A stretch of 13,687 nt of DNA from Elusimicrobiota bacterium (GTDB lineage Bacteria > Elusimicrobiota > Elusimicrobia > Elusimicrobiales > UBA9959): NCBI GenBank assembly GCA_037137395.1, contig JBAXKK010000070.1, forward strand, positions 1-13,687, read 5' to 3'. Every line of letters starts with the position of its first letter. Position 1 is the first letter of the stretch. The notes under the pieces are model-generated. The model was given only the letters and a program-made list of their open reading frames with translations. It ran no database searches and was not told where the DNA came from. A program made the translations under genes and the position numbers. Positions 1 to 13,687 of this stretch are shown piece after piece.

Positions 1-89
1 GGGTGGCTGGGTAGACCAGGTTAGAACCTGTTTTATGCAGGTTTAATGTTCCCCCACTTTGACCGTGTATGACAGTTTATGATGGACCG
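1..89 (+). repeat. Left copy of 89-bp direct repeat (att-like)
   Basis: Positions 1-89 match 13599-13687 except T34 vs G13632. Contains the dyad CAGGTT-AG-AACCTG (17-30), a third CAGGTT (38-43) and a 10-bp tandem TGACCGTGTA/TGACAGTTTA (60-79). The true repeat may extend beyond the window edges. Confidence 0.97.
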
Positions 90-91
90 GG

Positions 92-556
92 TTGCCCGTG
101 TGCACCATAAGTTGTGGGGTCAAATCGGGGCGTGCAAAAAAGTGGTTGTCTTTACCCGGAGATTCCCCTCGTATTCGAGATAAAAGGCAAAAACCGCTGG
201 CCTTTCGGCTACGATATACTTCGCAAGCTATCTTACCCGGATTACTACCCCGTTCCGCCGAGTCAACCGCCCGCATCTCCCGGCTGGGGCGGCGCCCGAT
301 ACTGATTAGGGTGGAGGCAACGCTTACTGCCCTGGCCCTGGAACTTGGGATGACCCATTTTGAGGTAATCAGCCGGCTGAACCTGCTCCGGCTCGCGCCT
401 GAACTTCATGAGCGTATTATGGCCTTGCCTCCGACCTCACACAGGTGTCCGATCAACAAGCGAACGCTACGATATATCACTGTAATCCCTGATTTTGAGT
501 GCCAGCAAATGGAGTTTAATAATCTAATCTCCCATCCAATTGTAGGAGCTTCCTGA
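92..556 (+). CDS. HTH protein (ParB/Spo0J-like HTH) of the type found next to large serine recombinases; N-terminus uncertain, possibly degenerate
   Basis: C-terminal half TLTALALELGMTHFEVISRLNLLRLAPELHERIMALP...INKRTLRYIT..PDFECQQMEF resembles the 'LAxxLGxSxxRVxQxLNLLxLAPEIQ...ERxLRxI..xDxxxQ' pattern of small recombinase-locus proteins. TTG start has no clear RBS. Confidence 0.55.
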   Translation: MPVCTISCGVKSGRAKKWLSLPGDSPRIRDKRQKPLAFRLRYTSQAILPGLLPRSAESTARISRLGRRPILIRVEATLTALALELGMTHFEVISRLNLLRLAPELHERIMALPPTSHRCPINKRTLRYITVIPDFECQQMEFNNLISHPIVGAS

Positions 557-560
557 ATTT

Positions 561-1712
561 TTAGGCGCTTTCTTCTTCTCTGGCTGACAACTCATCCATC
601 TCTGCTTTGGACAGCTTCGGCGAGAACCACCGTTGAGCTATAAATGTCGGCACGACTGTGCCTATAACCACTGCGACGAGTACTGAGAACTGCCCTTTGT
701 CGATGTACCCTGCTTGGAGCCCATAGAGAGATGAGATAGTGCCGAATGTAAGTCCCGTGCTCATCAGCAGGGTCGTATATTCGGCGTGCTCGGCAACATA
801 CCGTTTAGCCACGGGCCAGACACCGATGAATTTAGCCGCGATTTTTATCCCGAACAGGGCCAGGAACAGGGGCCATTGGGCCGCAATTGCCTGCAATGAA
901 ACACTCATGCCGCCCTTAATGAAAAAAAACGGGGTTATCATGGCGAAGGCAACGACGCGGAGCTTCTTCTGGAGATCCTTATGCTCACGGAACATTTTAC
1001 CCAAGTACAGGCCAAGAATGAAAACGGGCAGCACTGCGTGCCCCTTTCCTAATTGGGCTAAGGACATGAAAGAAAAGAGCAGGAAGAAAAGCAATTTAAT
1101 CTCCGGCTCGATAACACGCTTGCCGTAGCGTAAAAATATACCGGGCAGCCAGCGCGCCGCCGCCGCTATGATCGCAATAGAACCCAGAATAAACCACAGT
1201 GTGTAAATGTTATATTCCGCAAAGGATAACGACAATGCCGCGGCGACCCCGAAATCCGTGACAAATGTCGCGGCCATGATTGTTTTTCCTATTTCCGTAT
1301 TGGTTAGTCCGGTTTCAACCAGAACCGCATACACCACAGCCAACGAAGTGGTGGAAAGGGCGCATCCTGCTATGAGCGAGGCGTTCCAGGTCCAACCCGC
1401 GCCCCAGTAGCAATAGGCAATGGCGGCGATGTAGGGAATCACGAATGACAGTCCGCCGATAAGCAGACTCTCCTTTAACTTGTTTCGCAATATCCTGCTA
1501 TCCACCTCCGCCCCGGCCAGAAAAGTCAGGAGGACGCCGCCGAATCCCGCGAGAAAATCCATCCAAGGCGCTGATTCCAGGCCGAGAAAGTTTCCAGCTA
1601 TGACGCCAGCCGCTATTTCAATGATGGCGGCCGAAAGCGCAAGTTCAACGGAAAAAACACTGGCAATAAAAATCAGAAGCATTATACAGGTTGCGGCGTA
1701 AGTCATATCCAT
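561..1712 (-). CDS. Cation:proton antiporter (CPA2 / Na+/H+ exchanger family)
   Basis: 383 aa, highly hydrophobic, with motifs LTFLAGAEVD, ALSTTSLAVV, AATFVTD and PFFFIKGG. Lies directly downstream of a fluoride riboswitch. Confidence 0.92.
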   Translation of the reverse strand: MDMTYAATCIMLLIFIASVFSVELALSAAIIEIAAGVIAGNFLGLESAPWMDFLAGFGGVLLTFLAGAEVDSRILRNKLKESLLIGGLSFVIPYIAAIAYCYWGAGWTWNASLIAGCALSTTSLAVVYAVLVETGLTNTEIGKTIMAATFVTDFGVAAALSLSFAEYNIYTLWFILGSIAIIAAAARWLPGIFLRYGKRVIEPEIKLLFFLLFSFMSLAQLGKGHAVLPVFILGLYLGKMFREHKDLQKKLRVVAFAMITPFFFIKGGMSVSLQAIAAQWPLFLALFGIKIAAKFIGVWPVAKRYVAEHAEYTTLLMSTGLTFGTISSLYGLQAGYIDKGQFSVLVAVVIGTVVPTFIAQRWFSPKLSKAEMDELSAREEESA

Positions 1713-1723
1713 ATTTATATCCT

Positions 1724-1756
1724 AAAAAAAAGACCCCTACCTTCATGGTAGGAGTC
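1724..1756 (-). terminator. Intrinsic terminator forming the riboswitch expression platform
   Basis: Minus strand GACTCCTACC-ATGAA-GGTAGGGGTC followed by T8. The 5' arm is the 3' end of the aptamer. Confidence 0.9.
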
Positions 1757-1799
1757 ATCAGCCCCGTTGCGGGAGCAGTTCAGGCGAACTCCATCGCCT
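1748..1799 (-). ncRNA. Fluoride riboswitch (crcB motif)
   Basis: Minus strand AGGCGATGGAGTTCGCC-TGAACTGC-TCCCGCAACGGG-GCTGATGACTCCTAC matches the crcB consensus GGCGAUGGxGUUCGCC...AAxxGC...GCUGAUGACxCCUAC, including the GGAGU/ACUCC pseudoknot pairing. Confidence 0.96.
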
Positions 1800-1805
1800 A
1801 GCTTT

Positions 1806-1835
1806 ATTTTAGCAGGTTGTTTAAGGCGGGTTCAA
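1806..1835 (-). promoter_or_regulatory. Sigma70-like promoter for the riboswitch-antiporter transcript
   Basis: TTGAAC-N18-TAAAAT with an extended -10 TGn. Predicted start at about 1799 coincides with the aptamer 5' end. Confidence 0.7.
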
Positions 1836-1960
1836 TGCTTATAACAAAAAATACCGTATATATGCCGTAATTCCCGATTTTGAACGTCAGAAAGAATAAT
1901 TCTGTAGGCTTGGCGGAGTTGCTCTGAATGCAGGTAAGGATTTAAGTAGTCCGCCTAGAG

Positions 1961-2293
1961 TTAATGCGTCCAATCCAGCACCTTTACATCCGCCCCAAGC
2001 TTTTTAGTTACCGCCTCGATCATTTTGGCAGAATGTGGGCATGGAAACCCTATGGGATTCCCGTTTTTGATGCATGAGGCAAATACTATCATCTGCGCGC
2101 CGCGATCCACCATCATTTTAGCCCGCGTAACCGCTTTCTTGCCCGGGCATCCTCCGCAGGAAACAAAGCCTACAATCTCAACCGGTCCGGTTTGTTCAAA
2201 AGCGCACTTCCCCTCTTGGGCGACTTTGAAGTCGGTGTTTCCTGGGCACATGTCCTCCGTTTGCTGGCATCGAATGATTCCTGCTTTCATCAT
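1961..2293 (-). CDS. CGGC-domain protein (Cys-rich, putative metal/Fe-S binding)
   Basis: GIIRC...CPG...F...CGGCPG...ASC...PCPH...DWTH pattern, with a GGAG RBS upstream. Confidence 0.9.
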   Translation of the reverse strand: MMKAGIIRCQQTEDMCPGNTDFKVAQEGKCAFEQTGPVEIVGFVSCGGCPGKKAVTRAKMMVDRGAQMIVFASCIKNGNPIGFPCPHSAKMIEAVTKKLGADVKVLDWTH

Positions 2294-2378
2294 TTTTGTT
2301 TTCTCCGTCTGTGACCTGATGCGTGTTTATCTATGCTACAAAATTTCCAAATCCTCATGGCTATATTTGCGTTAGGTT

Positions 2379-2570
2379 TTAATTAATTTTAATCGCTTTC
2401 ACCGGACAGGTCCAGACACACCCGCGCAATCGGTCGCATTTAGTTTCATCCGTTACCTTGCACTTCCCAGTTCCCTTGTCTAAATACAATATCTGTTTCG
2501 GGCACATGTTTACACACTTCCCGCAGCCCGTGCACAAATTCTCGTCAATGAGAACTATTTCATTCGTCAT
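2379..2570 (-). CDS. Small dicluster-type ferredoxin
   Basis: CTGCGKCVNMCP and CDRLRGCVWTCP motifs in 63 aa. Confidence 0.9.
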   Translation of the reverse strand: MTNEIVLIDENLCTGCGKCVNMCPKQILYLDKGTGKCKVTDETKCDRLRGCVWTCPVKAIKIN

Positions 2571-2959
2571 TGTTCCTCCTGAGCGGTAATCTCAAACGCG
2601 GGAGGGTTCGTGAGGTGCCGCTTTACCGTGCAAAGCTCGGTGGCTTTTATCAGCGCGGCTTCATACTGCTTCGGAAAGCCTTTCGGAAGTGTTATCCGCA
2701 TACCGACTTTTTTGACCAGGTGCGAGGTTTCATCCCAGTCAAAGGAAAGGTCGATCTTGAAACCTTCCGTGGAAAGATTGCGGCTCTGCAGGAATCCCAC
2801 AGCAAATATACCGGCGCATGTCCCTAATGACGCCAGAAATAGGTCAAAGGGTGTAGGGGCAGAGCCATCCCCGCCAGCGCTTTCGGGCTGGTCGGTCTTT
2901 ATTTCAAAGCCGTGAAAGGACGCGTTGATCTTCTTATTTCCGCCAAAAGTTATTTCCAT
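2567..2959 (-). CDS. OsmC/Ohr-family protein
   Basis: TDQP...GGDGSAPTPFDLFLASLGTC and CTVKRHL, the two conserved cysteines of the family. Confidence 0.9.
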   Translation of the reverse strand: MEITFGGNKKINASFHGFEIKTDQPESAGGDGSAPTPFDLFLASLGTCAGIFAVGFLQSRNLSTEGFKIDLSFDWDETSHLVKKVGMRITLPKGFPKQYEAALIKATELCTVKRHLTNPPAFEITAQEEQ

Positions 2960-2973
2960 GTTTAATATCTCCT

Positions 2974-3327
2974 CTATTTTACATTCAGCACTTCAGCGAT
3001 AGCTTTTTCCAGGCTTTCCTTCGGCAGAACGCCGCTTACCATCTGCGGTTTGCCGGTTTGCGGGATTAAAAGCATTGTCGGGATGCTCTGTATGCCGAAC
3101 AGAGATGAAAGATGCTGCTCCTCATCGGTGTTCACCTTGTAAATATCAAGTTTTCCGGCATATTTCTCCGCCAGCTCAGCCAGCACGGGAGAAAGCATTT
3201 TGCACGGCCCGCACCAGTCCGCGTAGAAATCCACTATGCAGGGCTTATCCCCGGTGAATTTCCAGTCTTTGTTTTGTTCAAAGTCAAAGACCTTTGTTTT
3301 GAACGTGTCATTCGTAAGATTCTGCAT
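2974..3327 (-). CDS. trxA: Thioredoxin
   Basis: VDFYADWCGPCKM active site, SIPT cis-Pro motif and GGAGG RBS. Confidence 0.95.
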   Translation of the reverse strand: MQNLTNDTFKTKVFDFEQNKDWKFTGDKPCIVDFYADWCGPCKMLSPVLAELAEKYAGKLDIYKVNTDEEQHLSSLFGIQSIPTMLLIPQTGKPQMVSGVLPKESLEKAIAEVLNVK

Positions 3328-3339
3328 AATCCCTCCTGT

Positions 3340-3507
3340 CTACCTGTTCATCGTGAATAACAGCCCTAAGAGGGCTCCCCATATAGTGCTTAAATACGGG
3401 TTCTTCACTATAGGGCACATGCCGGAGGCGCACCCAACGATCCTGTGCCAGAGATATCCCAGTATTCCCCCGCCAGCCACTCCCACGATAATTTTAAGAT
3501 CAGACAT
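3340..3507 (-). CDS. Small membrane protein, DUF6132-like (not in the supplied ORF track)
   Basis: Manual translation gives MSDLKIIVGVAGGGILGYLWHRIVGCASGMCPIVKNPYLSTIWGALLGLLFTMNR* (55 aa). Two TM segments flank GCxSGxCPIxxNP. GAGGAG RBS present. Confidence 0.88.
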   Translation of the reverse strand: MSDLKIIVGVAGGGILGYLWHRIVGCASGMCPIVKNPYLSTIWGALLGLLFTMNR

Positions 3508-3539
3508 TTCGGCTCCTCTGCATCTTTACCCTTCATGTA

Positions 3540-3567
3540 TTAGACGCGCAAAGGGCAAAAAGGATGC
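3540..3567 (-). promoter_or_regulatory. Putative ECF-sigma-type promoter for the redox cluster
   Basis: Minus strand GCATCC-N15-CGTCTAA about 30 nt upstream of the DUF6132-like start. A CGTC-type -10 is typical of ECF promoters. An 8-bp inverted repeat GCAAAAAG-N8-CTTTTTGC (3555-3578) overlaps the -35. Confidence 0.5.
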
Positions 3568-3619
3568 GCACTTTTTGCTGGCCAATGATGAAACGAGGAT
3601 GTCGAGGATGGGTAACGAC

Positions 3620-4172
3620 TCAGCGGAAATCTTTGAGTTGTTTTTTTAGGAGAAGTCTTGCGCGATGTAGTTTCGCTTTTAACGCCGGTAGAGATATTTT
3701 TAGCCTGCCGGCCGCTTCCGAATTGGATAAGCCCTCTATGTCGCACAAGGTTATGGCTATTCTATAGTCCAGCGGAAGCGCCACCAAAGCGTTGCTTACC
3801 GCGCGGCTGAGCTCGTTTTTGATGGCGTTTTCGCTGGCTGAAGGCGTTGACGGATGACCTGGGCTTTTGTCTCCAGTCTCCGGGAATCTCTGAGGTGGCC
3901 GAGGTTTTGGCCTTGCGGAACCTTTGCCAGCAGTTATTGGCCGCGATGCGGTAAAGCCATGTGCCAAAAGCGGCATTTGCCTTGAAAGAGTTTATGTGTT
4001 TCAGCGCTGAGATAAATGTTTCCTGTGCCACGTCTGGGGCTTCTGACGGCATTCTGGCGCAGACGCTGGAAGCGATGCCGTAAAGCCGGTCCTTATACTT
4101 CAGGACCAAGGTTTCAAAGGCTTTATCATCACCATTGCGGGCGCGTGTTATAATTTCGCTTTCTTTTATCAT
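3620..4172 (-). pseudogene. ECF sigma-70 factor split by a +1 frameshift near 3870-3885
   Basis: ORF 3762..4172 carries region 2 (GDDKAFETLV..., DVAQETF..., FGTWLYRIAANNC). ORF 3620..3976 carries region 4 (LPLDYRIAITLCDIEGLSNSEAA...KAKLHRARLLL). Joined, they give about 181-183 aa. Confidence 0.88.
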
Positions 4173-4197
4173 GCAAAAGTTGAAGAGTAGTAGGGCC

Positions 4198-4524
4198 TTA
4201 CGACTCAGCCTTCCCCGCTTCCGTTTTTTGAACTTGCTGCGACTTGTTCCGGATCAGGCGAATAGCCCTGTCCATCTTTCGGTATCTAAATATTCCGACC
4301 GTGATGGCGGCTATTCCTGCCGGGATACAGACGATCCCTGCGGCTAGGAACCAGCTGTCATGAGAAAAATGCACTATCGAAACTCCGGCGATCAGCAGCG
4401 TCACACCGGAACGCAGGTATGCAAGCAGGGTCCGTTCATTCGCCAGAAGAGTTCTGTCAATCGCAAGCTCGTCCCGCAGGATAAGATCGCTGCCATCGAA
4501 GCGTAAATAGTGGGAGTCTTTCAT
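4198..4524 (-). CDS. DUF202 (YidH-like) small membrane protein
   Basis: LRDELAIDRTLLANERTLLAYLRSG motif followed by two TM segments. Confidence 0.9.
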   Translation of the reverse strand: MKDSHYLRFDGSDLILRDELAIDRTLLANERTLLAYLRSGVTLLIAGVSIVHFSHDSWFLAAGIVCIPAGIAAITVGIFRYRKMDRAIRLIRNKSQQVQKTEAGKAES

Positions 4525-4545
4525 AATATGCCTTCCTTCCCTTGA

Positions 4546-5247
4546 TTACAATCCCATAAAGGTAACGGCTATTCCGCAGGTAAAGACCGCGAAGCCAGCG
4601 AGAGCATGCGAGTATCGCTCAATCTTCTGAACCGGTAGCAGTTCAATTCCGCGTAACGCCGCTAAAACCATAACCATCATCGTGGAAATAGTGCATAGGG
4701 AGAATACCGCTGTTACGGCGATTACCCCGCTCATGCTGCTCTTGGCCGCCGGATATATAAGCAACGGGATAAGTGGCTCACATGGGCCGAAAACAAAGAT
4801 CGTGAACAATATCCAAGGAGTGATGTTTGCTTTTCCTGCCTCATGGACGTGAGCGTGTTCTTCTGCGTGAGAATGATTGTGAACATGTTGGAATCCGCCG
4901 TGCTCATGCGAGTGCTCGTGTTCCCGGCCTGAATATGCCTTCTTAAGTCCCCAGATAAAATATAGCAGACCGAATATTACCAGCAGCCAGCCCGCAAGGC
5001 CGCCACGGAAGGCTTCTATTTTTTCAAGGCTGGTCACTTTCGCGCCGATATAAACACCGGCAAATCCCAGTATTACAGAACTCCCGACATGGCCCAGGCC
5101 GCAGACGAAAGTGATAACGCCGGTTTTCCAATAGGACCAGCCCCTGGCTTTGGCCATTGCTATAAATGGCACATAATGGTCAGGACCAAGCAATGTGTGA
5201 AAAAAACCGATAGAAGCTGCCGTAAGCGCCAGAACTTTAATATCCAT
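4546..5247 (-). CDS. His-rich Ni/Co transporter-like membrane protein (NiCoT/UreH/RcnA-related)
   Basis: FFHTLLGPDHY (HxxxxxDH-type) motif in TM1, GLGHV, central His-rich loop HEHSHEHGGFQHVHNHSHAEEHAHVH, and GPCE. Confidence 0.8.
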   Translation of the reverse strand: MDIKVLALTAASIGFFHTLLGPDHYVPFIAMAKARGWSYWKTGVITFVCGLGHVGSSVILGFAGVYIGAKVTSLEKIEAFRGGLAGWLLVIFGLLYFIWGLKKAYSGREHEHSHEHGGFQHVHNHSHAEEHAHVHEAGKANITPWILFTIFVFGPCEPLIPLLIYPAAKSSMSGVIAVTAVFSLCTISTMMVMVLAALRGIELLPVQKIERYSHALAGFAVFTCGIAVTFMGL

Positions 5248-5273
5248 TGACTCCTCCGAAGTGAATTATATTT

Positions 5274-6101
5274 CTATGTTAGCATTTTCTTTGTCGCCCA
5301 GGTCCCGGTGAGCAAGATGAGGAATACCGCCACTATCGTTGGGCCGGACGACAAATCCAGCCGCATGGATAGTTCAAGCCCGGCGAAACAGCCGGTCACG
5401 CCGAACAGCCAGCCGAATATTATGCGCCGGGATATGCCCGTCACCGCTATCATGGCCGCGACAGCGGGAATTATCAGGAAAGCAAAGACCAATAAAACAC
5501 CTGCCACTTTAACCGAAGACGTTACTATCATGCCGAAAGTGGCGTAAAACACGAAATCCCACCACCAGATCTTCATGCCCTTGCTGCGTGCCGCCTCGGG
5601 ATCTTCCGTAACCAGCAGCAACTTCTTCCGCGAGAACCAATGGATAAGCCCCATAACCGCACACAGCGCCGCTATGAATCCCAATTCTTTCGGCGAGACC
5701 GTAAGCAGTGAGCCGGTGAGCATCTCTTTTATCTCCTCAGTGCCTGTCGCAGAACGCTCCAGGACAATGAGCGACATTGCTATTGCTCCGGCATAGGTAA
5801 TGCCAATAAGGGCTTCTATCGGGACTTTCTGGCGCTTGCTTCGGAACACCACGAACAGCAAGGCCCCCAAGAGCGTAAAAGACAGGGACATTAGATAATT
5901 CTGCACCGGGAACTGTTCCCCCCATCCCAACAGAACGCCCACGCTTGAACCAAGCGCCGCTACCTGCGCAAGTGATAGGTCCACAAAGATAACGCCTCTT
6001 CGGACCACATGATACCCAAAGTATGTATATGTCCCGGTAAGCACAAGGCAGACCAGAAGCGTAATAATCGCAAAGTGATATTGAAATATCATCATAAACA
6101 T
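5274..6101 (-). CDS. Metal ABC transporter permease (ZnuB/ABC-3 family)
   Basis: RRGVIFVDLSLAQVAALG, GVLLVFAFLIIPA and DLSSGPTIV motifs in a polytopic membrane protein. Confidence 0.9.
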   Translation of the reverse strand: MFMMIFQYHFAIITLLVCLVLTGTYTYFGYHVVRRGVIFVDLSLAQVAALGSSVGVLLGWGEQFPVQNYLMSLSFTLLGALLFVVFRSKRQKVPIEALIGITYAGAIAMSLIVLERSATGTEEIKEMLTGSLLTVSPKELGFIAALCAVMGLIHWFSRKKLLLVTEDPEAARSKGMKIWWWDFVFYATFGMIVTSSVKVAGVLLVFAFLIIPAVAAMIAVTGISRRIIFGWLFGVTGCFAGLELSMRLDLSSGPTIVAVFLILLTGTWATKKMLT

Positions 6102-6979
6102 TACCTCCCTTCTATCTGAGCGACAATTTCTTCAAAATGCTTGAAATATGAATCAGGTTTGACATCGGAGCAAGAGGGCGAGAACTTGAATATCTTTATT
6201 CCGGTCTGACGCGCTAGGAATTTCGGCGAGCCGTCCGGAAAATAAGACTCCTGCAGTAGAATGGATATTCCATCCCGTTTGATTATCTCAACCAGCTCCG
6301 CGAGATGCTTCGCTGTGGGAGGAATGCCCGGCAAAGGCTCCACAGTCCCAGCGATGGTCAGGTTAAACGCCGTAGTGAAATATATCCAGGAAGAATGATA
6401 GGTGATGACTTTTTGCCCGGAAACTTTTGCCAGCCGGGATTTCCAGTCGGCAAGGTTCTTCCCGGCCTCTTCCTTGAAGCGTTCGTAATTCTTGTCGTAA
6501 TACTGACTGTTTGAAGGGTCCGCTTTCTTTAATGCGGTAACCACATTGCTCGCAATGATTAGTCCGTTCGCCGGGTTCAGCCAGTAATGCGGGTTGCCTT
6601 CTGGATGGATATCCCCCATAGAGGCATCCACTTTGCCGGTCGGCTTCTGAAGAGCCGCTATCCCGTTGGAGCAGTCAACCGTGAGCAACTTGCTGTTGCG
6701 GGAGCCATCTATTATGGCGTCCGACCATTGATCTAGTGCCAGGCCGACTTTCAGATAGAGCGCAGCCCGCGAAACCTTTATCATGTACGAAGGCAGGACC
6801 TCTACAGCATGCGGGTTGGAATTACTCTTCCCAATAGAGAATACCTCCACCTTATCGCCACCTATATAGGAGGCTATTGCGCCTATATCCGGCAAGGCTG
6901 CCGCGATTTTAACAGGACCGGCGGATACCGGGATAGCGCCTGTAAGAATAACTGCTACCGATAAAAGCAGATGTTTCAT
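6101..6979 (-). CDS. Metal ABC transporter substrate-binding protein (ZnuA/TroA cluster A-I)
   Basis: Signal peptide plus NPHAVE, GDIHPEGNPHYWL, TYHSSW and EPLPGIPPTAKHL motifs. Confidence 0.93.
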   Translation of the reverse strand: MKHLLLSVAVILTGAIPVSAGPVKIAAALPDIGAIASYIGGDKVEVFSIGKSNSNPHAVEVLPSYMIKVSRAALYLKVGLALDQWSDAIIDGSRNSKLLTVDCSNGIAALQKPTGKVDASMGDIHPEGNPHYWLNPANGLIIASNVVTALKKADPSNSQYYDKNYERFKEEAGKNLADWKSRLAKVSGQKVITYHSSWIYFTTAFNLTIAGTVEPLPGIPPTAKHLAELVEIIKRDGISILLQESYFPDGSPKFLARQTGIKIFKFSPSCSDVKPDSYFKHFEEIVAQIEGR

Positions 6980-7004
6980 AATGTTATTACCTCCAAAAAA
7001 TCAC

Positions 7005-8060
7005 TTAGAACTTATGCGCCTTATGCGGTCCCATGCTGAACAGCACCTGGAACATCGCGGTGTGAACAGCAGGGGAATTTTCCGGTTTGAAATGCTCATA
7101 ACTGAGCCTAAGCAGAGTCGTCTCTTCCAGCAGCGAGAATCCGACAAAACCTTTTAGCGCTCGGTTGGTCAGGCTTTTATTTTCAATCGGCTGATATTGA
7201 TCGTAAATAATACCCGCGTTCCATCTCTGCTTGAACTTCAGATCCGCAAAGACATAAACCCCCTGCCTTCTGATCCTGCTGGAATCGCCAGTGGTTGTGT
7301 CAACGACAACTTCGCTGTTATTATAGAGGTACTCACCCTGCAATGTCAGGTTGGTCAGGCTAGAGAAGGATATTTTAGTCTTAATATCCGCCCCGTAAAC
7401 TCCTGTTTTTGCTTTCCAGTGGACATTATTGACGCCTTGGGTGGCAGAAACACCTATATCCAGCGGCACCGTGTCATTCAGAAGCACTGAATTCCCCCAT
7501 CGGCTTATCCAGCCAGCCCTGGACTCTGGCTCGTCCGGGTGGAAGGATGCTCCTTTGAGAAAATCCACCGAGATATCGGACGCCCAGCTTCCGAAAGTCG
7601 GCAAGAGGTACGAAGCATGCGCCCCGACATCATTGAATCCATCGTCACCTGGAAGCATCGCAGACATGACTCTTGGGGCTTCAATGAACGGATAAGCATG
7701 CGGATGCACTGGGTTTAGCTTACCGAAACCTAGGCGGTATTTTCCCCCACGGAGCGCAAGTCCAGCTGGAAGTCCCTTGAGGACATCGATATATGCTTCC
7801 TCAGTCTGCAATCCTTCATCCCCTGCTGTGAACACGAAAAAACCCTTAGCATAGGGATTCAGATAGGAATCAAACACCAATTCCGTCTCGCCCAGGTCAA
7901 GCGTTGGCCTATGGGCATCCTGCACGGTTTTATCATCGTGGTATTTAAAAACAATCTGTCCAATAACCGAAATGTCCGGATTAGTCACTCCGGCGTATAC
8001 AACGCCGGGAATAATCAAACCACTTAAAAATACAAGGCAAATTACACTTACTCTAAACAT
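7005..8060 (-). CDS. Outer-membrane beta-barrel/porin associated with metal uptake
   Basis: Signal peptide, NPDISVIG, FGKLNPVHPH, alternating beta-strand pattern and C-terminal GPHKAHKF. First gene of the binding-protein/permease operon. Confidence 0.78.
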   Translation of the reverse strand: MFRVSVICLVFLSGLIIPGVVYAGVTNPDISVIGQIVFKYHDDKTVQDAHRPTLDLGETELVFDSYLNPYAKGFFVFTAGDEGLQTEEAYIDVLKGLPAGLALRGGKYRLGFGKLNPVHPHAYPFIEAPRVMSAMLPGDDGFNDVGAHASYLLPTFGSWASDISVDFLKGASFHPDEPESRAGWISRWGNSVLLNDTVPLDIGVSATQGVNNVHWKAKTGVYGADIKTKISFSSLTNLTLQGEYLYNNSEVVVDTTTGDSSRIRRQGVYVFADLKFKQRWNAGIIYDQYQPIENKSLTNRALKGFVGFSLLEETTLLRLSYEHFKPENSPAVHTAMFQVLFSMGPHKAHKF

Positions 8061-8154
8061 AATCGCTCCTTAAAAGAATTGATGTGTCACAAGAGTTTAT
8101 TCCGATACGACACGGCTAGGAATATCGTGTGACGGGAAGTCAATGTTTAGAGTA
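8049..8154 (-). promoter_or_regulatory. Long mRNA hairpin sequestering the porin start codon (translational attenuator)
   Basis: Perfect 12-bp inverted repeat between 8143-8154 (mRNA UACUCUAAACAU) and 8049-8060 (mRNA AUGUUUAGAGUA). Nested stems at 8128-8133/8086-8091 and 8119-8124/8098-8103. Confidence 0.75.
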
Positions 8155-8416
8155 TGGGAGGACCGCGTGAAAGGACGGTATTGTAGAATGTGCTTTTGAC
8201 AAGAACATCCGTAACAGGAACGACATTAAATAATATCGTAGGGTCAGCAGACTGAACTGTTACGCTATTTACCGGTATGACTGAAGAAGCAGCAATACAT
8301 AAGACGCAGCTATCTGTGCGGTGGGTCGAAAGATCATGTGAGGCAGCATGGATGCCTATACCTATTACGGCAAAAATAGCCCATATCGCCACTAGCTTTT
8401 TTATACCGCTTAGCAT
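8147..8416 (-). CDS. DUF2946-like His/CxxC leader peptide with C-terminal RGPP ribosome-arrest motif
   Basis: 89 aa: N-terminal hydrophobic segment, HAASHDLSTHRTDSCVLC, spacer, then SRGPPIL*. Confidence 0.82.
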   Translation of the reverse strand: MLSGIKKLVAIWAIFAVIGIGIHAASHDLSTHRTDSCVLCIAASSVIPVNSVTVQSADPTILFNVVPVTDVLVKSTFYNTVLSRGPPIL

Positions 8417-8422
8417 ATAAAG

Positions 8423-8452
8423 ATTCTACTCATTTTCCCCTGAGTATGTGAA
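8423..8452 (-). promoter_or_regulatory. Sigma70-like promoter giving a probably leaderless mRNA for the leader peptide, with an internal operator-like inverted repeat
   Basis: TTCACA-N18-TAGAAT with 6 nt between the -10 and the ATG and no SD. TACTCA-N8-TGAGTA (8427-8446) lies across the spacer. Confidence 0.55.
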
Positions 8453-8480
8453 GCTGTTTTAGTCTAGTTGTTTTCGGCGC

Positions 8481-8855
8481 TCAATGACATCCAGGGCCAC
8501 CGTGATGCCCACAGGCGTGCATGGGGTCGGCTTCCTTAAGTTTGCCGGACTTTACAGCCTTTGCGGCTTCTTCAACCGTAGATGCCGGACTGAGATAAAC
8601 TTTTATCCCTGCGGCTCTCAGACCGTTTATGGCGCCAGCTCCCATGCCACCGGCCACCACGGCATCGGGCTTGGCATTGCCCACAGCTTTGAGCGGGTTA
8701 CACATGCCGTGCTCGTGTTCAAGATTCCCGTTATCTATGATTTCGCATTTAAGCGTTTCGGTGTCGCAAACAGTGAAATACGGAGCGCTGCCGAAATGCC
8801 CGTAAACTTTCGCCTTCAACCCGTCTTTTGTTTCTGTAGGTATGCAGACTTTCAT
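8481..8855 (-). CDS. NifB/NifX-family (FeMo-cofactor-binding-like) protein
   Basis: MKVCIP...HFGSAPYF...GGMGAGA...AGIKVY motifs with His/Cys-rich segments HEHGMC and HACGHHGGPGCH. Confidence 0.9.
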   Translation of the reverse strand: MKVCIPTETKDGLKAKVYGHFGSAPYFTVCDTETLKCEIIDNGNLEHEHGMCNPLKAVGNAKPDAVVAGGMGAGAINGLRAAGIKVYLSPASTVEEAAKAVKSGKLKEADPMHACGHHGGPGCH

Positions 8856-8882
8856 TTTGAGTCCTCCTGATGCTTTTGATTT

Positions 8883-10196
8883 TTAAAAATAATACCTGGC
8901 CCGCAGCTCATATCTGGCGTTGCCCGCTTTCTCGCCGAATTCCGTTTCGGGGGCACCGGCCAGGAACATGGCTTTAAGTCTAAGTTCAAAATTCGTGATG
9001 CGCGTCCACATTATTTCCGGCGAGAGTGAGAAACTTTTATCGTCTGCGTTTACTATCGTGGTCAGTGCCGGCGTAAAATAAAGGATATTGAACGGGTCCT
9101 GTTGTGTAGCACGCAGGTATACATAGTTGCGCATTGGGTTTACCACGCTGTAGCCGGAATTACCTATGTTTATTGCGTTTTGCATCTGCGCGGCGCTGCC
9201 CGTTCCTGCATAAGAGGCATAAGCGGTGTTTACGAAAGAAAAATAATCCATCATCGCCTCGTCCGAGAAGCCACCGCCGTTGTGATAATACTCGGCGATA
9301 TAGGTGGCGTCCTTTTCGGTCTGATAGCGTAAGCCGAGCAGCCAGCTTTTCGCGTCAAAGACTTTTGGGGCGGTTTTTCCGTTCTTGTCGGTTATGGTCT
9401 GGGGATTATCCGCTATTAAAGTCGCTTCACCGTGCACCTCGAAATTAGTGGAGATATTCCGCGAGAAATCGGCCCCGTAAGCCGCGGGTTTGCTTCCTTT
9501 AGCGCGATAGAGCAGATCGATGTCCGTATCGTAAAACAGGAAATACGCCTTAGCGGCCAGGTCCAGGTGGTTTAAACTGCCGAAGGTGTTGTTGAGATTA
9601 TCATAAACCGGCAACAATACCGGCGTGATGGACGCTGTTTTCAACCGCCCGTCAAAGCTTTTGGTATAATCGGCGGCCAGCACCGTGTAACCTTCAAGGG
9701 GCAGTTCGGGGTCGTCTGGGTTCTTCGGGCGGTCTACGAACGCCGCCGGGTTCCAGGCGTAGCCTTTGCCCCAGCGCATTACCTTTTTTCCGGTTATTAT
9801 ATCCGTTGACTGCGAGGGTTTTACGGATAGGTAGCCCTCATATATTTGCAGGTCGTTGTTCCAGCCCTGATAGGTATTGTTTAAATCGGCGTTGGCGCGA
9901 AGGTACAGCTTTGAGATCCCGCGCTGATAGCTCCCTTCAAGCTGGAGTTTGGAATTATATTCCGCTGTCGTCCAGGTTTTAGCGCGGTTATAAAATTTAA
10001 GCTTGTAAAACGCCGCGTTCCTGTCCTGGTCTATCAGCACCGGTCTGAATTCAGCGTAGCCGCCCAGGCTGTAGGGTTTTGTTTCAGTCTCGGAAACATC
10101 GAAAGAATAATCTTCCGCTGCACCCGGTGTTACAAGGCCGGGAGAGGCGGGAAGGCAGAGTAAAAAACCCAGGAAGAAATGCCGGCGGAGGCTCAT
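8883..10196 (-). CDS. Outer-membrane protein associated with the ABC/LolA-like module
   Basis: Signal-like N-terminus, GKKVMRWGKGYAWNP motif and C-terminal aromatic beta-signal ARYYF. ATGA overlap with the upstream gene. Confidence 0.72.
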   Translation of the reverse strand: MSLRRHFFLGFLLCLPASPGLVTPGAAEDYSFDVSETETKPYSLGGYAEFRPVLIDQDRNAAFYKLKFYNRAKTWTTAEYNSKLQLEGSYQRGISKLYLRANADLNNTYQGWNNDLQIYEGYLSVKPSQSTDIITGKKVMRWGKGYAWNPAAFVDRPKNPDDPELPLEGYTVLAADYTKSFDGRLKTASITPVLLPVYDNLNNTFGSLNHLDLAAKAYFLFYDTDIDLLYRAKGSKPAAYGADFSRNISTNFEVHGEATLIADNPQTITDKNGKTAPKVFDAKSWLLGLRYQTEKDATYIAEYYHNGGGFSDEAMMDYFSFVNTAYASYAGTGSAAQMQNAINIGNSGYSVVNPMRNYVYLRATQQDPFNILYFTPALTTIVNADDKSFSLSPEIMWTRITNFELRLKAMFLAGAPETEFGEKAGNARYELRARYYF

Positions 10197-10927
10197 CGCA
10201 GGGTGTCCACCTTCGGCATAAAGGTCAGCGTGAAGACCTCGTCTTTCAGTTCCCGCTTTTTTATCTTTGAGAAGATCATCACGGATTTATAGCCTTTATA
10301 AAGCGGGCTGTCGGTCTCTATCACGGAAGGCCGTACTATCCCGTCGCCGAAATCTTTAATTTCCTTATAATACAGTGTTTTAATGAGCATTCCTTTTTCC
10401 GTAAGACATTCCAGCTTTACGGGCAGTTTCTTCTTCTTGTCCACCCAGATGTTAAGCCTGTCATAGGCCACCGTTTTGCTCCTGGCCTTTACATGGAGAA
10501 GGTACTCTTCTCCCTTCTCTTCCATTTTCTCCACTGCGTATTCCGCGCCGAAGTCTATCTTGAGTATATCCGCGTTGTTGAATACGCCGCCGGTGGCGGA
10601 TTGCAGGCTGGTGATACGTATGGGTTTGCCCACGTTGGGGATGTAGAGCCACATATTATCGCCCAGCCTTAACATCCCTCGGCCTTTATCGCTGGCCGGG
10701 GAAAGGAATACTCCGGCGACCTTTTCATTGCCCTTGCGTACCATGTAAAGGACAAACTCCTTTTTACGGCCATCCGGTTCGATGTTAATGAGTTTTCGGT
10801 ACATCTCGTATGAGGGCGGCTCCAGGTTCCTGTCCACTTCCTGGAGCAGCGCGTTTCCGTCTTCTACGGCGTGCGCGACGGCGGCCATGAAAGCGAGCAG
10901 TGAAAAGATAAATAGTTTCTTCAGCAT
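10193..10927 (-). CDS. Outer-membrane lipoprotein-sorting protein (LolA-like fold)
   Basis: Signal peptide, FLSPASDKGRGMLRLGDNMWLYIP...PIRI, and context next to FtsX/LolD-like genes. Confidence 0.85.
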   Translation of the reverse strand: MLKKLFIFSLLAFMAAVAHAVEDGNALLQEVDRNLEPPSYEMYRKLINIEPDGRKKEFVLYMVRKGNEKVAGVFLSPASDKGRGMLRLGDNMWLYIPNVGKPIRITSLQSATGGVFNNADILKIDFGAEYAVEKMEEKGEEYLLHVKARSKTVAYDRLNIWVDKKKKLPVKLECLTEKGMLIKTLYYKEIKDFGDGIVRPSVIETDSPLYKGYKSVMIFSKIKKRELKDEVFTLTFMPKVDTLR

Positions 10928-10936
10928 CGGGCTCTC

Positions 10937-12175
10937 CTATATGCTCTTTAGCGCTTTGACAGGCTCTAGCCTGGACGCTTTCCAGGCGGGCTGGAGGCTG
11001 CCGAACACTGCCACGGCAAGCACAATAGCCGAAATCAACGAGAAGTCCACGGGGTTTACTGATGGTGTTAAGACAAAACCCTCGCGCATACCGAAAGAGA
11101 ACGTGATGTGCAGGAGCCTGACCCCGTATATCACCACGACGCTTATGATGTTGCCAGTGATAACCCCGGCCGCACCCAGGCACAACCCCTCCGCCATGAA
11201 CATGGCAAGGATGGTGTTCGGCTGTGTACCTATGGCGGCGATGGTCCCTATTTCCCTTGTCCGCTCGTAGACCGACATGATCATCACGTTCATAATGCCG
11301 ATGAGCACTATTGCCACGAGCATTATCTTAACTAGGAGTGTCATCATGTCTATCATCTTGGCAATGCTGGCGAACGGGGAAAGTTTTTCCCAGGTGTGTA
11401 TTTCAAAAACCGGCTTGCCGTCTTTGGTCTTTTCCTGCGCGAAGGCTTTTGCCAGGGTGTTGAAAGCCGTGTCGAGCTTGCCGAAGTCCTTTAAGTGCAC
11501 GGCTATCTCGCTGATTTCCGGCGGGTCCATGCGCAGCAGCTCCATGGCGTCGGCCAGCAGAATATAGCCGTCTCGCCCGCCGGGGCCGGGCGCGGTTTCT
11601 ATAATGCCGCCCACGGTGAACTGCTTGCCGTTCACTGAGCCGTCCTTGTTGGTGGCCACCAGCACCACGGTATCGCCGGTCTTGAGCTTCATGCCTTTCG
11701 CCAGAAGTTCCGGCACCAATACCTCGCCCGGCTTCAGATTACTGTTGCCCTCTAAAACCCTGGAGGGAAGCAGCGGCGCGGTTTTGAATTCCTTTTCCGG
11801 ATCTATGGCCGCAATGCGGATGTTGGTGGTCTCGGCAAAATTACTTATCATGCCGCCCAGCTTGATGCGGGTGGAATAAGACTCGACAAAGGGGCTGGCT
11901 TTAAGGATGGCTTCAGCCCGCGTCATTTGGTCAACAGTCAGGTTCATGTTCAGGGGCACATTCTCGACCGATACCAGATAGCCTTTCTTGTGTACCTGGA
12001 TATGCCCGAGCATGGAATCAGTGATCTGCGATATGATCAAGGTTTTATAGGAGTTTGTCGCCGCCATATATACCTGGACGAACACCACGCCCACGGCGAT
12101 AAGCGAGACTATCAGTAAAGACCGCCTTGCGTACCTGTGCGTATTGCGGACCGCCATTTTAAATATCTTAAGCAT
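10937..12175 (-). CDS. ABC transporter permease (MacB/LolE/FtsX type)
   Basis: N-terminal TM, large periplasmic domain, MSVYERTREIGTIAAIG and PAWKASRLEPVKALK. Confidence 0.93.
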   Translation of the reverse strand: MLKIFKMAVRNTHRYARRSLLIVSLIAVGVVFVQVYMAATNSYKTLIISQITDSMLGHIQVHKKGYLVSVENVPLNMNLTVDQMTRAEAILKASPFVESYSTRIKLGGMISNFAETTNIRIAAIDPEKEFKTAPLLPSRVLEGNSNLKPGEVLVPELLAKGMKLKTGDTVVLVATNKDGSVNGKQFTVGGIIETAPGPGGRDGYILLADAMELLRMDPPEISEIAVHLKDFGKLDTAFNTLAKAFAQEKTKDGKPVFEIHTWEKLSPFASIAKMIDMMTLLVKIMLVAIVLIGIMNVMIMSVYERTREIGTIAAIGTQPNTILAMFMAEGLCLGAAGVITGNIISVVVIYGVRLLHITFSFGMREGFVLTPSVNPVDFSLISAIVLAVAVFGSLQPAWKASRLEPVKALKSI

Positions 12176-12869
12176 TGTTGCCTCCGGTGCGGGACGTGCC
12201 AGTGAGTTCGCCGTCCTCCAGCGTGAAGATGCGTTCGGCCTCGCCGATGATCTTCTGGTCGTGCGTTGAGAAGATAAAGGTCGTGCCGGTCTCGGCGCGC
12301 ATCTTCTTCATCAGTTCAAGTATCAGGTAAGCCGTCTTATGGTCCAGGTTCGCGGTGGGTTCGTCGGCCAGCACTATCTTGGGGCGGGTTACTAGCGCCC
12401 TGGCTACGGCCACGCGCTGTTTCTGCCCGCCCGAGAGTTGGTCGGGATATTTATTGAGCTGGTCCGTCATGCCGACTTCTTCAAGCAGGGCCCTTATCCG
12501 CTTTTTGCGTTCATCTTCCGGCAGAGGGTTCACTATCATCAGCGGGTATTCGATGTTCTCATAGACGGTTAACACTGGGATAAGATTGAAGTCTTGGAAG
12601 ACAAAACCTATATGCTCACCCCGGAACCGCGCCCCGGCCTTGCGGTCCAGTTTGCCAACGTCCATGCCGCACACTTCCAGCAGGCCGCCGCTGGGTTTGT
12701 CCAGGCAGCCGATAAGGCTTAAAAGCGTTGTCTTACCGCTGCCTGACGGCCCGACGAAAGCGGCGAAGTCTCCAGCTTCCAGCTCAAAGTTTAATCCTTT
12801 GAGTGCCTCAACCTTGGTCTCGCCTGCGATATAATCCTTGTGCAGATTCTTTCCTGATATGATAACCAT
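12168..12869 (-). CDS. ABC transporter ATP-binding protein (LolD/MacB-like)
   Basis: Walker [15 protein letters not shown]-loop, LSGGQKQRV signature, [10 protein letters not shown] and STHD. Confidence 0.96.
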
Positions 12870-12902
12870 GCAATCTCCTTATAAAACCACTGCGCCGCGC
12901 TG

Positions 12903-13319
12903 TCATTTTCCAGGTTTAATGCGTTTGGCCGATTTTTTGTTTCCGGCAAGGCGGGTTGTCTTTTTTGCGCTCTCGCAGCATCTCCGGCCGCCTTGGCCGT
13001 CATGCTTTCCGCAACCGCAACCGCCGGAGTGAAGTTTAACCGTGCCGCCAGTTATCCGTATTGATTTGCCGCATACCAGCGCATCGGCGATCTTCTGCCG
13101 GGCGGAGTTTATTATATTGCCGAAAGTCTGGCGGGAGACGCCCATTATCTTAGCGGCGTCCTCTTGATACATCCCCCGGGAGTCGGCAAGGCGAAGTGCC
13201 TCGAACTCGTCAAGTTGAAGACGTATCTCTCCGCCGTCCCGTGAGGCTTTGCCGTTCGGACCGAAACAGGAGCAGGAGGGCTCGGCATGCACTTTCCTGC
13301 ATTTTCTGGACTCGCACAT
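12903..13319 (-). CDS. DUF134-family putative DNA-binding regulator with Cys-rich tail
   Basis: RKCRKV...LQLDEFEALRLADSRGMYQEDAAKIMGVSRQTFGNIINSARQKIADALVCGKSIRITGG. Start moved to the ATG at 13319 because GGAGGA lies at 13324-13329. Confidence 0.9.
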   Translation of the reverse strand: MCESRKCRKVHAEPSCSCFGPNGKASRDGGEIRLQLDEFEALRLADSRGMYQEDAAKIMGVSRQTFGNIINSARQKIADALVCGKSIRITGGTVKLHSGGCGCGKHDGQGGRRCCESAKKTTRLAGNKKSAKRIKPGK

Positions 13320-13337
13320 ATATTCCTCCACTGAAAG

Positions 13338-13357
13338 CTATTGGCATATGCCAATAG
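13338..13357. promoter_or_regulatory. Perfect 20-bp palindrome, probable operator
   Basis: CTATTGGCATATGCCAATAG is its own reverse complement and lies between the -10 and the RBS of DUF134. Confidence 0.8.
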
Positions 13358-13359
13358 GA

Positions 13360-13389
13360 ATTATAGGTATTGCGTCTCCTGTGAGTCAA
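13360..13389 (-). promoter_or_regulatory. Sigma70-like promoter of the DUF134-ABC-NifX operon
   Basis: TTGACT-N18-TATAAT on the minus strand. Confidence 0.75.
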
Positions 13390-13558
13390 GCATTCGATAA
13401 CACGTTGCTTACTGCACTGGGAAAAAAGGTTTCAATAGGTAATGGAAATGCCGGTAAGGGCTTCGGTGCGGTCCGGGAAAACGTTTCCGTAGTTTGAGAA
13501 TGAGTGCGACTGTTTTTCGGTTTCTCGACGAAAAACGGGCGTGCTTGTTCGGTGTTAT

Positions 13559-13589
13559 AAAAAAAGTGCTTACAAAATAAGCACTTTTT
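13559..13589. terminator. 12-bp inverted repeat or bidirectional terminator adjacent to the right repeat
   Basis: AAAAAGTGCTTA-CAAAA-TAAGCACTTTTT (13561-13589) with T tracts on both strands, 9 bp before the repeat. Confidence 0.6.
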
Positions 13590-13598
13590 AAAAAGTCT

Positions 13599-13687
13599 GG
13601 GTGGCTGGGTAGACCAGGTTAGAACCTGTTTGATGCAGGTTTAATGTTCCCCCACTTTGACCGTGTATGACAGTTTATGATGGACCG
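13599..13687 (+). repeat. Right copy of 89-bp direct repeat (att-like)
   Basis: 88/89 identical to positions 1-89 and in the same orientation. Confidence 0.97.

What the first reader, a model, noticed from the sequence alone, without database searches (positions are those of the whole stretch)
1..13687. 13.6-kb cargo cassette bounded by 89-bp direct repeats but carrying no recombinase
Seen: near-identical direct repeats at both ends (one mismatch) enclose co-oriented accessory genes, with no integrase or transposase inside. Inference: this is one unit excised and integrated by a site-specific recombinase acting in trans. It may be one member of a tandem, integron-like array in which each unit starts with the repeat plus an HTH gene. 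The mismatch argues against a pure assembly overlap.
Basis: partly seen in the sequence, partly recalled or inferred. Interest (0 to 1): 0.8.

Follow-up and report, generated by a model that had tools for sequence, protein, structure and literature searches.

The report
Integrase-less cargo unit in tRNA-His array
This 13.6-kb stretch is one gene-cargo unit in a row of such units whose joints match the end of a tRNA-His gene and look like serine-recombinase docking sites; it is likely a leftover of phage-type elements that would move only as a passenger of a neighbouring integrase.

Summary
The 89-bp repeat is real (one mismatch, 34 vs 13632), and no intact integrase or transposase lies inside. 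The window is a whole contig, but other assembly records bridge both ends. It is an internal unit of a linear array (1.2 kb | 13.6 kb | 5.4 kb | 18.3 kb | 2.1 kb), not a circle. The first ~45 bp are the element-side arm of a large-serine-recombinase (LSR) attachment site: it shares a 9-bp core with the tRNA-His 3' end and carries the tRNA-arm motif shifted by 5 bp. Of 61 mapped units, 60 lack an LSR; the exception is a tRNA-His prophage. The window's 'HTH gene' is the severed C-terminal ParB-HTH piece of that LSR type. The unit is a fused mosaic of decayed element ends and was not found whole in 45 relatives. Best reading: a CIME-like unit, left behind and likely ferried in cis by LSR elements. 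Solo integron-like excision is unproven. The scan noted similar arrays before in other bacteria; the closest published case is the Dehalococcoides ssrA island arrays.

The parts
1..45 (+). Left att arm (element-side P' half of an LSR attachment site); first 9 nt shared with the tRNA-His 3' end; crossover predicted at nt 3-4
51..131 (.). Separate hairpin-forming repeat that lengthens the visible direct repeat; a copy occurs in G016 with no att arm detected beside it
   Evidence: fold z -2.5
187..225 (+). Degenerate internal junction of a second arm family (type 3)
   Evidence: aligns with the junction in G038 C118
326..556 (+). Remnant of the ParB-HTH C-terminal domain of an LSR, severed from its catalytic part
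   Evidence: 41% to P0002 C-terminus, E 6e-15
561..1712 (-). CPA2-type cation/proton antiporter, likely a fluoride-related exporter
   Evidence: PF00999, TIGR00932 below cut-off
1742..1807 (-). Fluoride riboswitch upstream of the antiporter
   Evidence: RF01734 57.1 bits
1866..1985 (+). 3' tail of a second LSR-HTH copy, marking an inferred internal deletion joint at about 1840-1865
   Evidence: aligns with the HTH-CGGC junction of the G016 prophage
1961..4524 (-). Redox/stress block: CGGC, ferredoxin, OsmC, thioredoxin, DUF6132, frameshifted ECF sigma (3620-4172), DUF202
4546..8416 (-). Metal-uptake block: His-rich Ni/Co transporter-like protein, ZnuB-like permease, ZnuA-like binding protein, two unassigned ORFs
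8481..13331 (-). NifB/NifX-family protein, unassigned 437-aa ORF, LolA-like protein, FtsX/MacB permease, ABC ATPase, DUF134 regulator
   Evidence: 80% homologous block in a 6.2-kb unit of G003
13338..13389 (-). Sigma70-like promoter (11/12) and adjacent perfect 20-bp palindrome, likely the DUF134 operator
13412..13598 (+). Right-end module with a 12-bp-stem hairpin (13561-13589); its homologue directly abuts tRNA-His in G002
   Evidence: 85% over 197 bp; fold z -5.4
13599..13687 (+). Right att arm (13599-13643) plus start of the hairpin repeat; this is the beginning of the next unit (C115)

Best explanation
The window is one integrase-less cargo unit inside a linear tandem array whose joints are large-serine-recombinase-type attachment arms matching the tRNA-His 3' end, and it is likely a fused leftover of earlier LSR elements that would move as a passenger in cis. 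Shown: array order, shared 9-bp core, 5-bp-shifted arm motif, LSR genes ending in tRNA-His in this genome and in relatives, complete LSR prophages at tRNA-His in two relatives, and the window's HTH being an LSR tail. Inferred: LSR elements integrate at tRNA-His (attP x attB), which cuts the integrase gene. Later deletion of the integrase, or excision from an inner attL, leaves att-bounded cargo and regenerates attB beside the tRNA. A new element integrates there. Excision from an outer attL would carry one or more such units to a new host (accretion-mobilisation). Only canonical attP x attB and attL x attR reactions are needed.
For: L119 bridges the left repeat; L131/L132/L121 bridge the right one into C115 and C44. 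G000 C26 and G004 LSRs stop in the tRNA-His core. The best offset between tRNA arm and repeat arm is 5 nt, 10/14 matches vs 2-6 at other offsets, as in PMC3783163. Dyad symmetry of two natural LSR-tail/type-3 junctions peaks only with the centre after core nt 3 (12/18, 16/18); the window's junctions give 3/18 and 5/18, so they are hybrids. 60 of 61 units lack an LSR. G004 and G016 elements have terminase, portal and capsid genes. The G016 prophage begins HTH-CGGC-Ni/Co-ZnuAB in the window's order. In G038 the HTH-antiporter-riboswitch block precedes an LSR 5' stub. 16 of 29 family tRNA-His loci have an adjacent LSR and 11 have none.
Against: No bridge links the array to tRNA-His in G000; the link rests on a 55-nt arm shared by C44 and the end of C26 and on relatives. 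Only 6 of 89 left arms read as LSR tails, while 51 of 89 belong to reused, mostly non-LSR families; simple CIME decay predicts LSR tails, so the origin of these arms is unexplained. The LSR cognate to the window's arm family was not found. Most units are small (median 2.1 kb) with up to 7 joints per locus, which is more integron-like than decay would suggest. No circle or transfer was observed.
Confidence: 0.6

Rival explanations
1. Integron-like system: a relaxed LSR acting in trans excises, reinserts and reorders single units by recombining the hybrid joints with each other or with attB.
For: 43 of 61 units are 3 kb or less. Lineage-specific arm families recur both beside the tRNA and at internal joints. 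Two unit pairs are homologous from near their left boundary over most of their length with different neighbours (G004/L136, G004/G000 C44). The arm is conserved in records titled for several phyla.
Against: PMC3783163 (passage) reports antiparallel preference for attL x attL, which disfavours excision between direct repeats. The window is a 20-gene mosaic with its own promoter and riboswitch. No whole-unit homologue in 45 relatives. Contig depth equals chromosome depth.
Confidence: 0.22
2. Fossil scars: the joints are inactive remnants, and the unit is gained or lost only by RecA recombination between the 100-130-bp near-identical repeats.
For: Identity between neighbouring joints runs well beyond the ~30-bp arm. 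Internal degenerate junctions and a frameshifted sigma gene are present. No cognate LSR found.
Against: Arm positions stay highly conserved across 86 distinct joints, including positions 29-33 outside the search pattern. LSR genes abut tRNA-His in 16 of 29 family loci.
Confidence: 0.15
3. Assembly artefact or free circular element.
For: The window is a whole contig broken in a repeat. X1 shows a joint 102 to 13599 with only 30 nt on one side.
Against: Other assembly records run linearly through both ends into different neighbours. No replication gene. Depth 12.4-12.6 vs 8.7-13.6 on C26 pieces.
Confidence: 0.03

Closest known systems
Dehalococcoides ssrA genomic-island arrays with DsiB (PMC3146451; passages and section 11 read)
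   Same: Tandem islands at the 3' end of a structural RNA gene; an LSR whose 3' end overlaps the att site; a short element-side motif beside the direct repeat; 15 islands without an integration module, read there as possible cis-mobilisable elements.
   Different: Target is tRNA-His, not ssrA. No six-gene dsi module seen. The autonomous elements found here are prophages. Nearly all mapped units (60 of 61) lack the integrase and are small. At least three arm families share one core.
CIMEs and accretion-mobilisation in Streptococcus (PMC7563491, PMC5704250; passages read)
   Same: Integrase-less att-flanked cargo elements of 1.2-13 kb in tandem with an autonomous element; decayed elements lie farthest from the target gene.
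   Different: Parents here are LSR prophages or minimal LSR elements, not ICEs/IMEs. Arrays are longer (up to 7 joints per locus vs 2-3 elements). Most right-hand arms are reused non-integrase sequences.
SCC/ECC composite cassette chromosomes (PMC6222049; passages read; pseudo-SCC from search listing and recall)
   Same: LSR-mobilised variable cargo with ~50-bp direct repeats and several att sites per island.
   Different: Target is rlmH and the enzymes are CcrAB; neither is seen here.
Phage large serine integrases, A118/LI type (PMC3783163; passages read)
   Same: Motif shifted 5 bp between host-side and element-side arms; dyad attP.
   Different: Here att lies inside the integrase gene, and one subfamily loses a ParB-HTH domain on integration.
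Integrons / CALINs (recalled) and tycheposons (10.1101/2020.12.28.424599; passages read)
   Same: Rows of small, mostly co-oriented accessory units at one locus; tRNA-anchored islands.
   Different: No IntI or attC seen, and the window has its own promoter. Tycheposons encode their own, mostly tyrosine, integrase.

Membership tests
LSR attachment site | Element-side motif shifted 5 bp relative to the host arm | tested here: met
   offset 5 gives 10/14, other offsets 2-6
LSR attachment site | Dyad symmetry of attP around a central dinucleotide | tested here: met
   12/18 and 16/18 in 2 of 3 LSR-tail/type-3 junctions; absent from 2 tail/type-1 junctions, 1 tail/type-2 junction and the window's own joints
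LSR attachment site | Cognate integrase for the window's arm family | tested here: inconclusive
   none of 49 homologue tails; only the query's own fragment in 1.84 billion proteins
CIME | Flanked by att sites, no integrase or transfer genes | tested here: met
CIME | Derived by decay from an autonomous element | tested here: met
   two HTH remnants and cargo order shared with the G016 prophage and a G038 element
CIME | Parent is an ICE or IME (conjugative transfer) | tested here: not met
   the two complete LSR elements found are prophages; the nature of the G000 C26 element is unresolved
CIME | In tandem with an autonomous element at the target gene | tested here: inconclusive
   true in G004 and G016; unbridged in G000
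CIME | Cis-mobilisation demonstrated | not testable with these tools
   only contig-level runs were available
Integron | IntI tyrosine recombinase beside the array | tested here: not met
   6 tyrosine-recombinase matches in G000, none on array contigs; none in 45 units
Integron | attC sites | not tested
   no attC model was run; the joints are explained as tRNA core plus LSR arm
Integron | Promoterless, mostly single-gene cassettes | tested here: not met
   window has about 20 genes, a promoter and a riboswitch; many other units are single-gene
Dehalococcoides ssrA-GI | Integration at ssrA | tested here: not met
   core matches tRNA-His
Dehalococcoides ssrA-GI | LSR 3' end overlapping att | tested here: met
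SCC / pseudo-SCC | rlmH target | tested here: not met
   target is tRNA-His
SCC / pseudo-SCC | CcrAB/CcrC enzymes | not tested
   LSRs were not compared with Ccr proteins

The most novel reading that the evidence does not exclude
A serine-recombinase analogue of the integron: a conserved tRNA-His att arm and reusable terminator-like unit ends let visiting prophage integrases capture, drop and reorder single cargo units across several uncultured phyla, with integration itself switching the integrase by cutting off a ParB-HTH domain.
Probability: 0.22. Interest if true: 0.75.

Novelty: new variant of a known kind. Interest (0 to 1): 0.47.

Why it matters
It explains how uncultured Elusimicrobiales and other groundwater/lake lineages may collect accessory genes (metal uptake, fluoride and redox stress, defence) at one tRNA without an integron. 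It also gives testable parts: natural LSRs, three arm families sharing one core, and an integrase whose C-terminal ParB-HTH domain is joined only when the att site inside the gene is intact. If single units prove mobile, this would be a second route to cassette arrays. If not, it is a clear phage-driven case of tandem accretion.

Tried and rejected
Circular contig or overlap artefact: rejected by bridging records. tRNA inside the window: none. Rfam match for the repeat: none, only the fluoride riboswitch. The arm in viral contigs: 0 matches in three pattern scans. Cognate LSR for the window's arm: not found; the only hits were the query's own fragment and an unrelated repeat protein. Native empty-site flank: not identified; LSR-less tRNA flanks differ among genomes. 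A mirrored motif in left arms as a class: no signal. The X1 joint 102 to 13599 (30 nt on one side) cannot be read as a circle or empty site, because any neighbouring joint fits equally. Runs X2-X4 cover the window only in short pieces; one extra left arm appears in X2. One hit of a broad pattern on C64 was set aside as chance (the reversed-genome control of a related peptide pattern gave 1). Depth from contig runs is not a copy number and is used only as weak support. PADLOC gave nothing for three window ORFs. C142 and C102 may belong to a co-binned relative (7.7% contamination), so they are not placed in the array.
Full report
Observation. The direct repeat is real: 1-89 and 13599-13687, one mismatch at 34/13632. 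Cargo ORFs recognised by Pfam or NCBIfam are all on the minus strand. They encode a CPA2 antiporter under a fluoride riboswitch, redox and stress proteins, a frameshifted ECF sigma factor, metal-uptake proteins, an ABC exporter set and a DUF134 regulator. None of 23 ORFs scanned is an integrase or transposase. The window is the whole of contig C70 of a 174-contig genome whose contigs often overlap by 55 nt, so an assembly artefact had to be excluded.

Not an artefact. The arm has 10 copies on 6 contigs of G000. Records from the metagenome scan bridge both ends. L119 matches window 1-3437 at 100% and continues leftwards into a 1,209-bp unit. L131/L132 match 13452-13687 at 100%, then C115 (5,376 bp), then C44; L121 carries C44 on to a further joint. 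The order is 1.2 | 13.6 | 5.4 | 18.3 | 2.1 kb. These records may come from the same DNA, so they test the assembly, not the biology. In run X1 the long pieces have depth 12.4-12.6 on the window and 8.7-13.6 on chromosomal C26; the repeat reaches 65-73. The tool warns that this is no copy number, so it is weak support only.

What the repeat is. It has two parts. Positions 51-131 are a separate hairpin-forming repeat, also seen in G016 without a detected arm. Positions 1-45 are an att arm. Their first 9 nt equal the antisense 3' end of tRNA-His, where a 496-aa LSR on G000 C26 and a 542-aa LSR in G004 both stop. In G002 the homologue of window 13412-13607 (85%) directly abuts tRNA-His. The arm consensus matches the tRNA arm best at an offset of 5 nt (10 of 14; 2-6 at other offsets). 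This is the attP/attB signature in PMC3783163 (passages). In 2 of 3 natural joints between an LSR tail and a type-3 arm, dyad symmetry peaks only with the centre after core nt 3 (12/18 and 16/18). The window's joints give 3/18 and 5/18, so they are attL-like hybrids.

Distribution. An exact pattern found 17 stretches in GTDB contigs, whose titles name Elusimicrobia, Omnitrophota, Auribacterota, Patescibacteria and a deltaproteobacterium. It found 76 stretches in metagenomes and none in viral contigs. In the host's phylum it matched 10 of 401 genomes, including all 5 congeners scored, with 0 control matches. LSR homologues are named Elusimicrobiales by their sources, so the host is likely of that order. 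After de-duplication by flanks I mapped 61 units: median 2,091 bp, 43 of them 3 kb or less, up to 7 joints per locus. Short contigs and the search pattern bias this set. An LSR profile hit 1 of 61; tyrosine integrases hit 0 of 45.

The autonomous elements. The one unit with an LSR (G004 C10, 57.5 kb) and a 64-kb element in G016 C25 end at tRNA-His and encode terminase, portal, protease, capsid, tail and primase. They begin with a type-3 arm that reads in frame into a ParB-HTH domain (PF17762 E 4e-4, below cut-off). Two database proteins of 714 and 709 aa carry resolvase, recombinase, zinc-ribbon and ParB-HTH domains in one chain. Integration therefore likely cuts the domain off. C26-type LSRs pair with a second arm family (tails of P0028 and P0042). 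The LSR for the window's own arm family was not found. In the family, 16 of 29 readable tRNA-His loci have an adjacent LSR, 11 have none and 2 are too short (30 fetched, one not read).

Ancestry of this unit. The window's 'HTH gene' is that severed domain (41% over 85 aa), preceded by a degenerate type-3 joint at about 187-225. In G038 the HTH-antiporter-riboswitch block (86-94% identical, on two contigs) is followed by the 5' stub of an LSR. A second HTH tail at about 1866-1985 runs into CGGC exactly as at the left end of the G016 prophage, which continues with the same Ni/Co and Znu genes. Window 8473-13389 lies in a 6.2-kb unit of G003. No relative holds the whole unit: 16 of 45 have some match, the longest pieces being 4.3 and 4.9 kb. 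The window is thus likely a fusion of at least two decayed element ends.

Mechanism. Best reading: repeated LSR integration at tRNA-His, then decay or excision from an inner attL, leaves att-bounded cargo and regenerates attB. Excision from an outer attL would carry units along. This is accretion-mobilisation as described for CIMEs (PMC7563491, PMC5704250; passages). Solo excision needs attL x attL between direct repeats, which PMC3783163 reports as preferring antiparallel alignment. Against my reading: only 6 of 89 left arms score as LSR tails, whereas 51 of 89 have a close relative among other left arms (shuffled control 0). The same arm families sit beside the tRNA in 4 of 8 flanks without an LSR. 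37 of 91 left arms fold as hairpins at z below -2, vs 6 of 43 controls. Two unit pairs recur with different neighbours. These points keep an integron-like reading alive. The link from the array to tRNA-His in G000 is unbridged and rests on a 55-nt type-2 arm shared by C44 and the end of C26.

Known or new. The closest published case is the Dehalococcoides ssrA arrays: LSR overlapping att, and 15 islands without an integration module (PMC3146451; passages and section 11). ECC/SCC (PMC6222049, passages) and tycheposons (bioRxiv 2020.12.28.424599, passages) are more distant. Searches found no paper on tRNA-His LSR arrays in these phyla, or on an LSR losing a ParB-HTH domain on integration. The library lacks most subscription papers, and I read no supplements. 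The scan has noted similar arrays in CPR and Omnitrophota genomes and the C26 integrase layout; those are AI notes, not support.

Verdict. A real unit of a real array, and a new variant of tandem att accretion. The added value is the link to prophages and to a split LSR-HTH integrase. Independent mobility of the unit is unproven. Interest 0.47.

Noticed in passing
window 561-1807: Fluoride riboswitch (RF01734) controlling a CPA2-type antiporter; the block is 94% identical in G038, a genome of another family, which suggests recent transfer.
   Followed up: partly
window 3620-4172: ECF sigma factor split by a frameshift; one X2 contig lacks 7 nt at 3869, so another strain may differ here.
   Followed up: no
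window 13338-13357: Perfect 20-bp palindrome just downstream of a strong sigma70-like promoter in front of DUF134; likely an operator.
   Followed up: no
window 51-131; L055 about 13305-13368: Small hairpin repeat attached to four neighbouring att arms in G000 and present in G016 without a detected arm.
   Followed up: partly
G000 C26 28514-28695 (L104): Inverted copy of the LSR's last ~135 bp joined to a type-2 arm, upstream of the LSR's own start; reported earlier by the scan.
   Followed up: partly
L051:6020-6577, P0002, P0003: LSR subfamily with a C-terminal ParB-HTH domain; att lies between the catalytic part and this domain.
   Followed up: partly
L208-L211 (G016 C25 65.6-129.5 kb); L051, L095-L097 (G004 C10 6.1-63.6 kb): Two related Elusimicrobiales prophages at tRNA-His with Mom-like or DNA-methyltransferase genes and different cargo, including defence-like genes.
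   Followed up: partly
L149 112-12974: Seven joints 1.5-3.6 kb apart, six with one family of left arm; the most integron-like array in the set, host unknown.
   Followed up: no
L107 2367-2452: An 85-bp gene-less unit directly beside tRNA-His (microCIME-like).
   Followed up: no
L002 (G000 C115) and L003 (G000 C44): Neighbouring units carry a TOTE-type primase-helicase with an AlbA/RecG-like protein, and a radical-SAM/SPASM, MFS, GNAT and sigma54 cluster.
   Followed up: no
L007, L062 (G000 C65, G001 C30): Another LSR whose 3' end overlaps the start of a following MiaB-like gene (label recalled from the sequence, not scanned).
   Followed up: no
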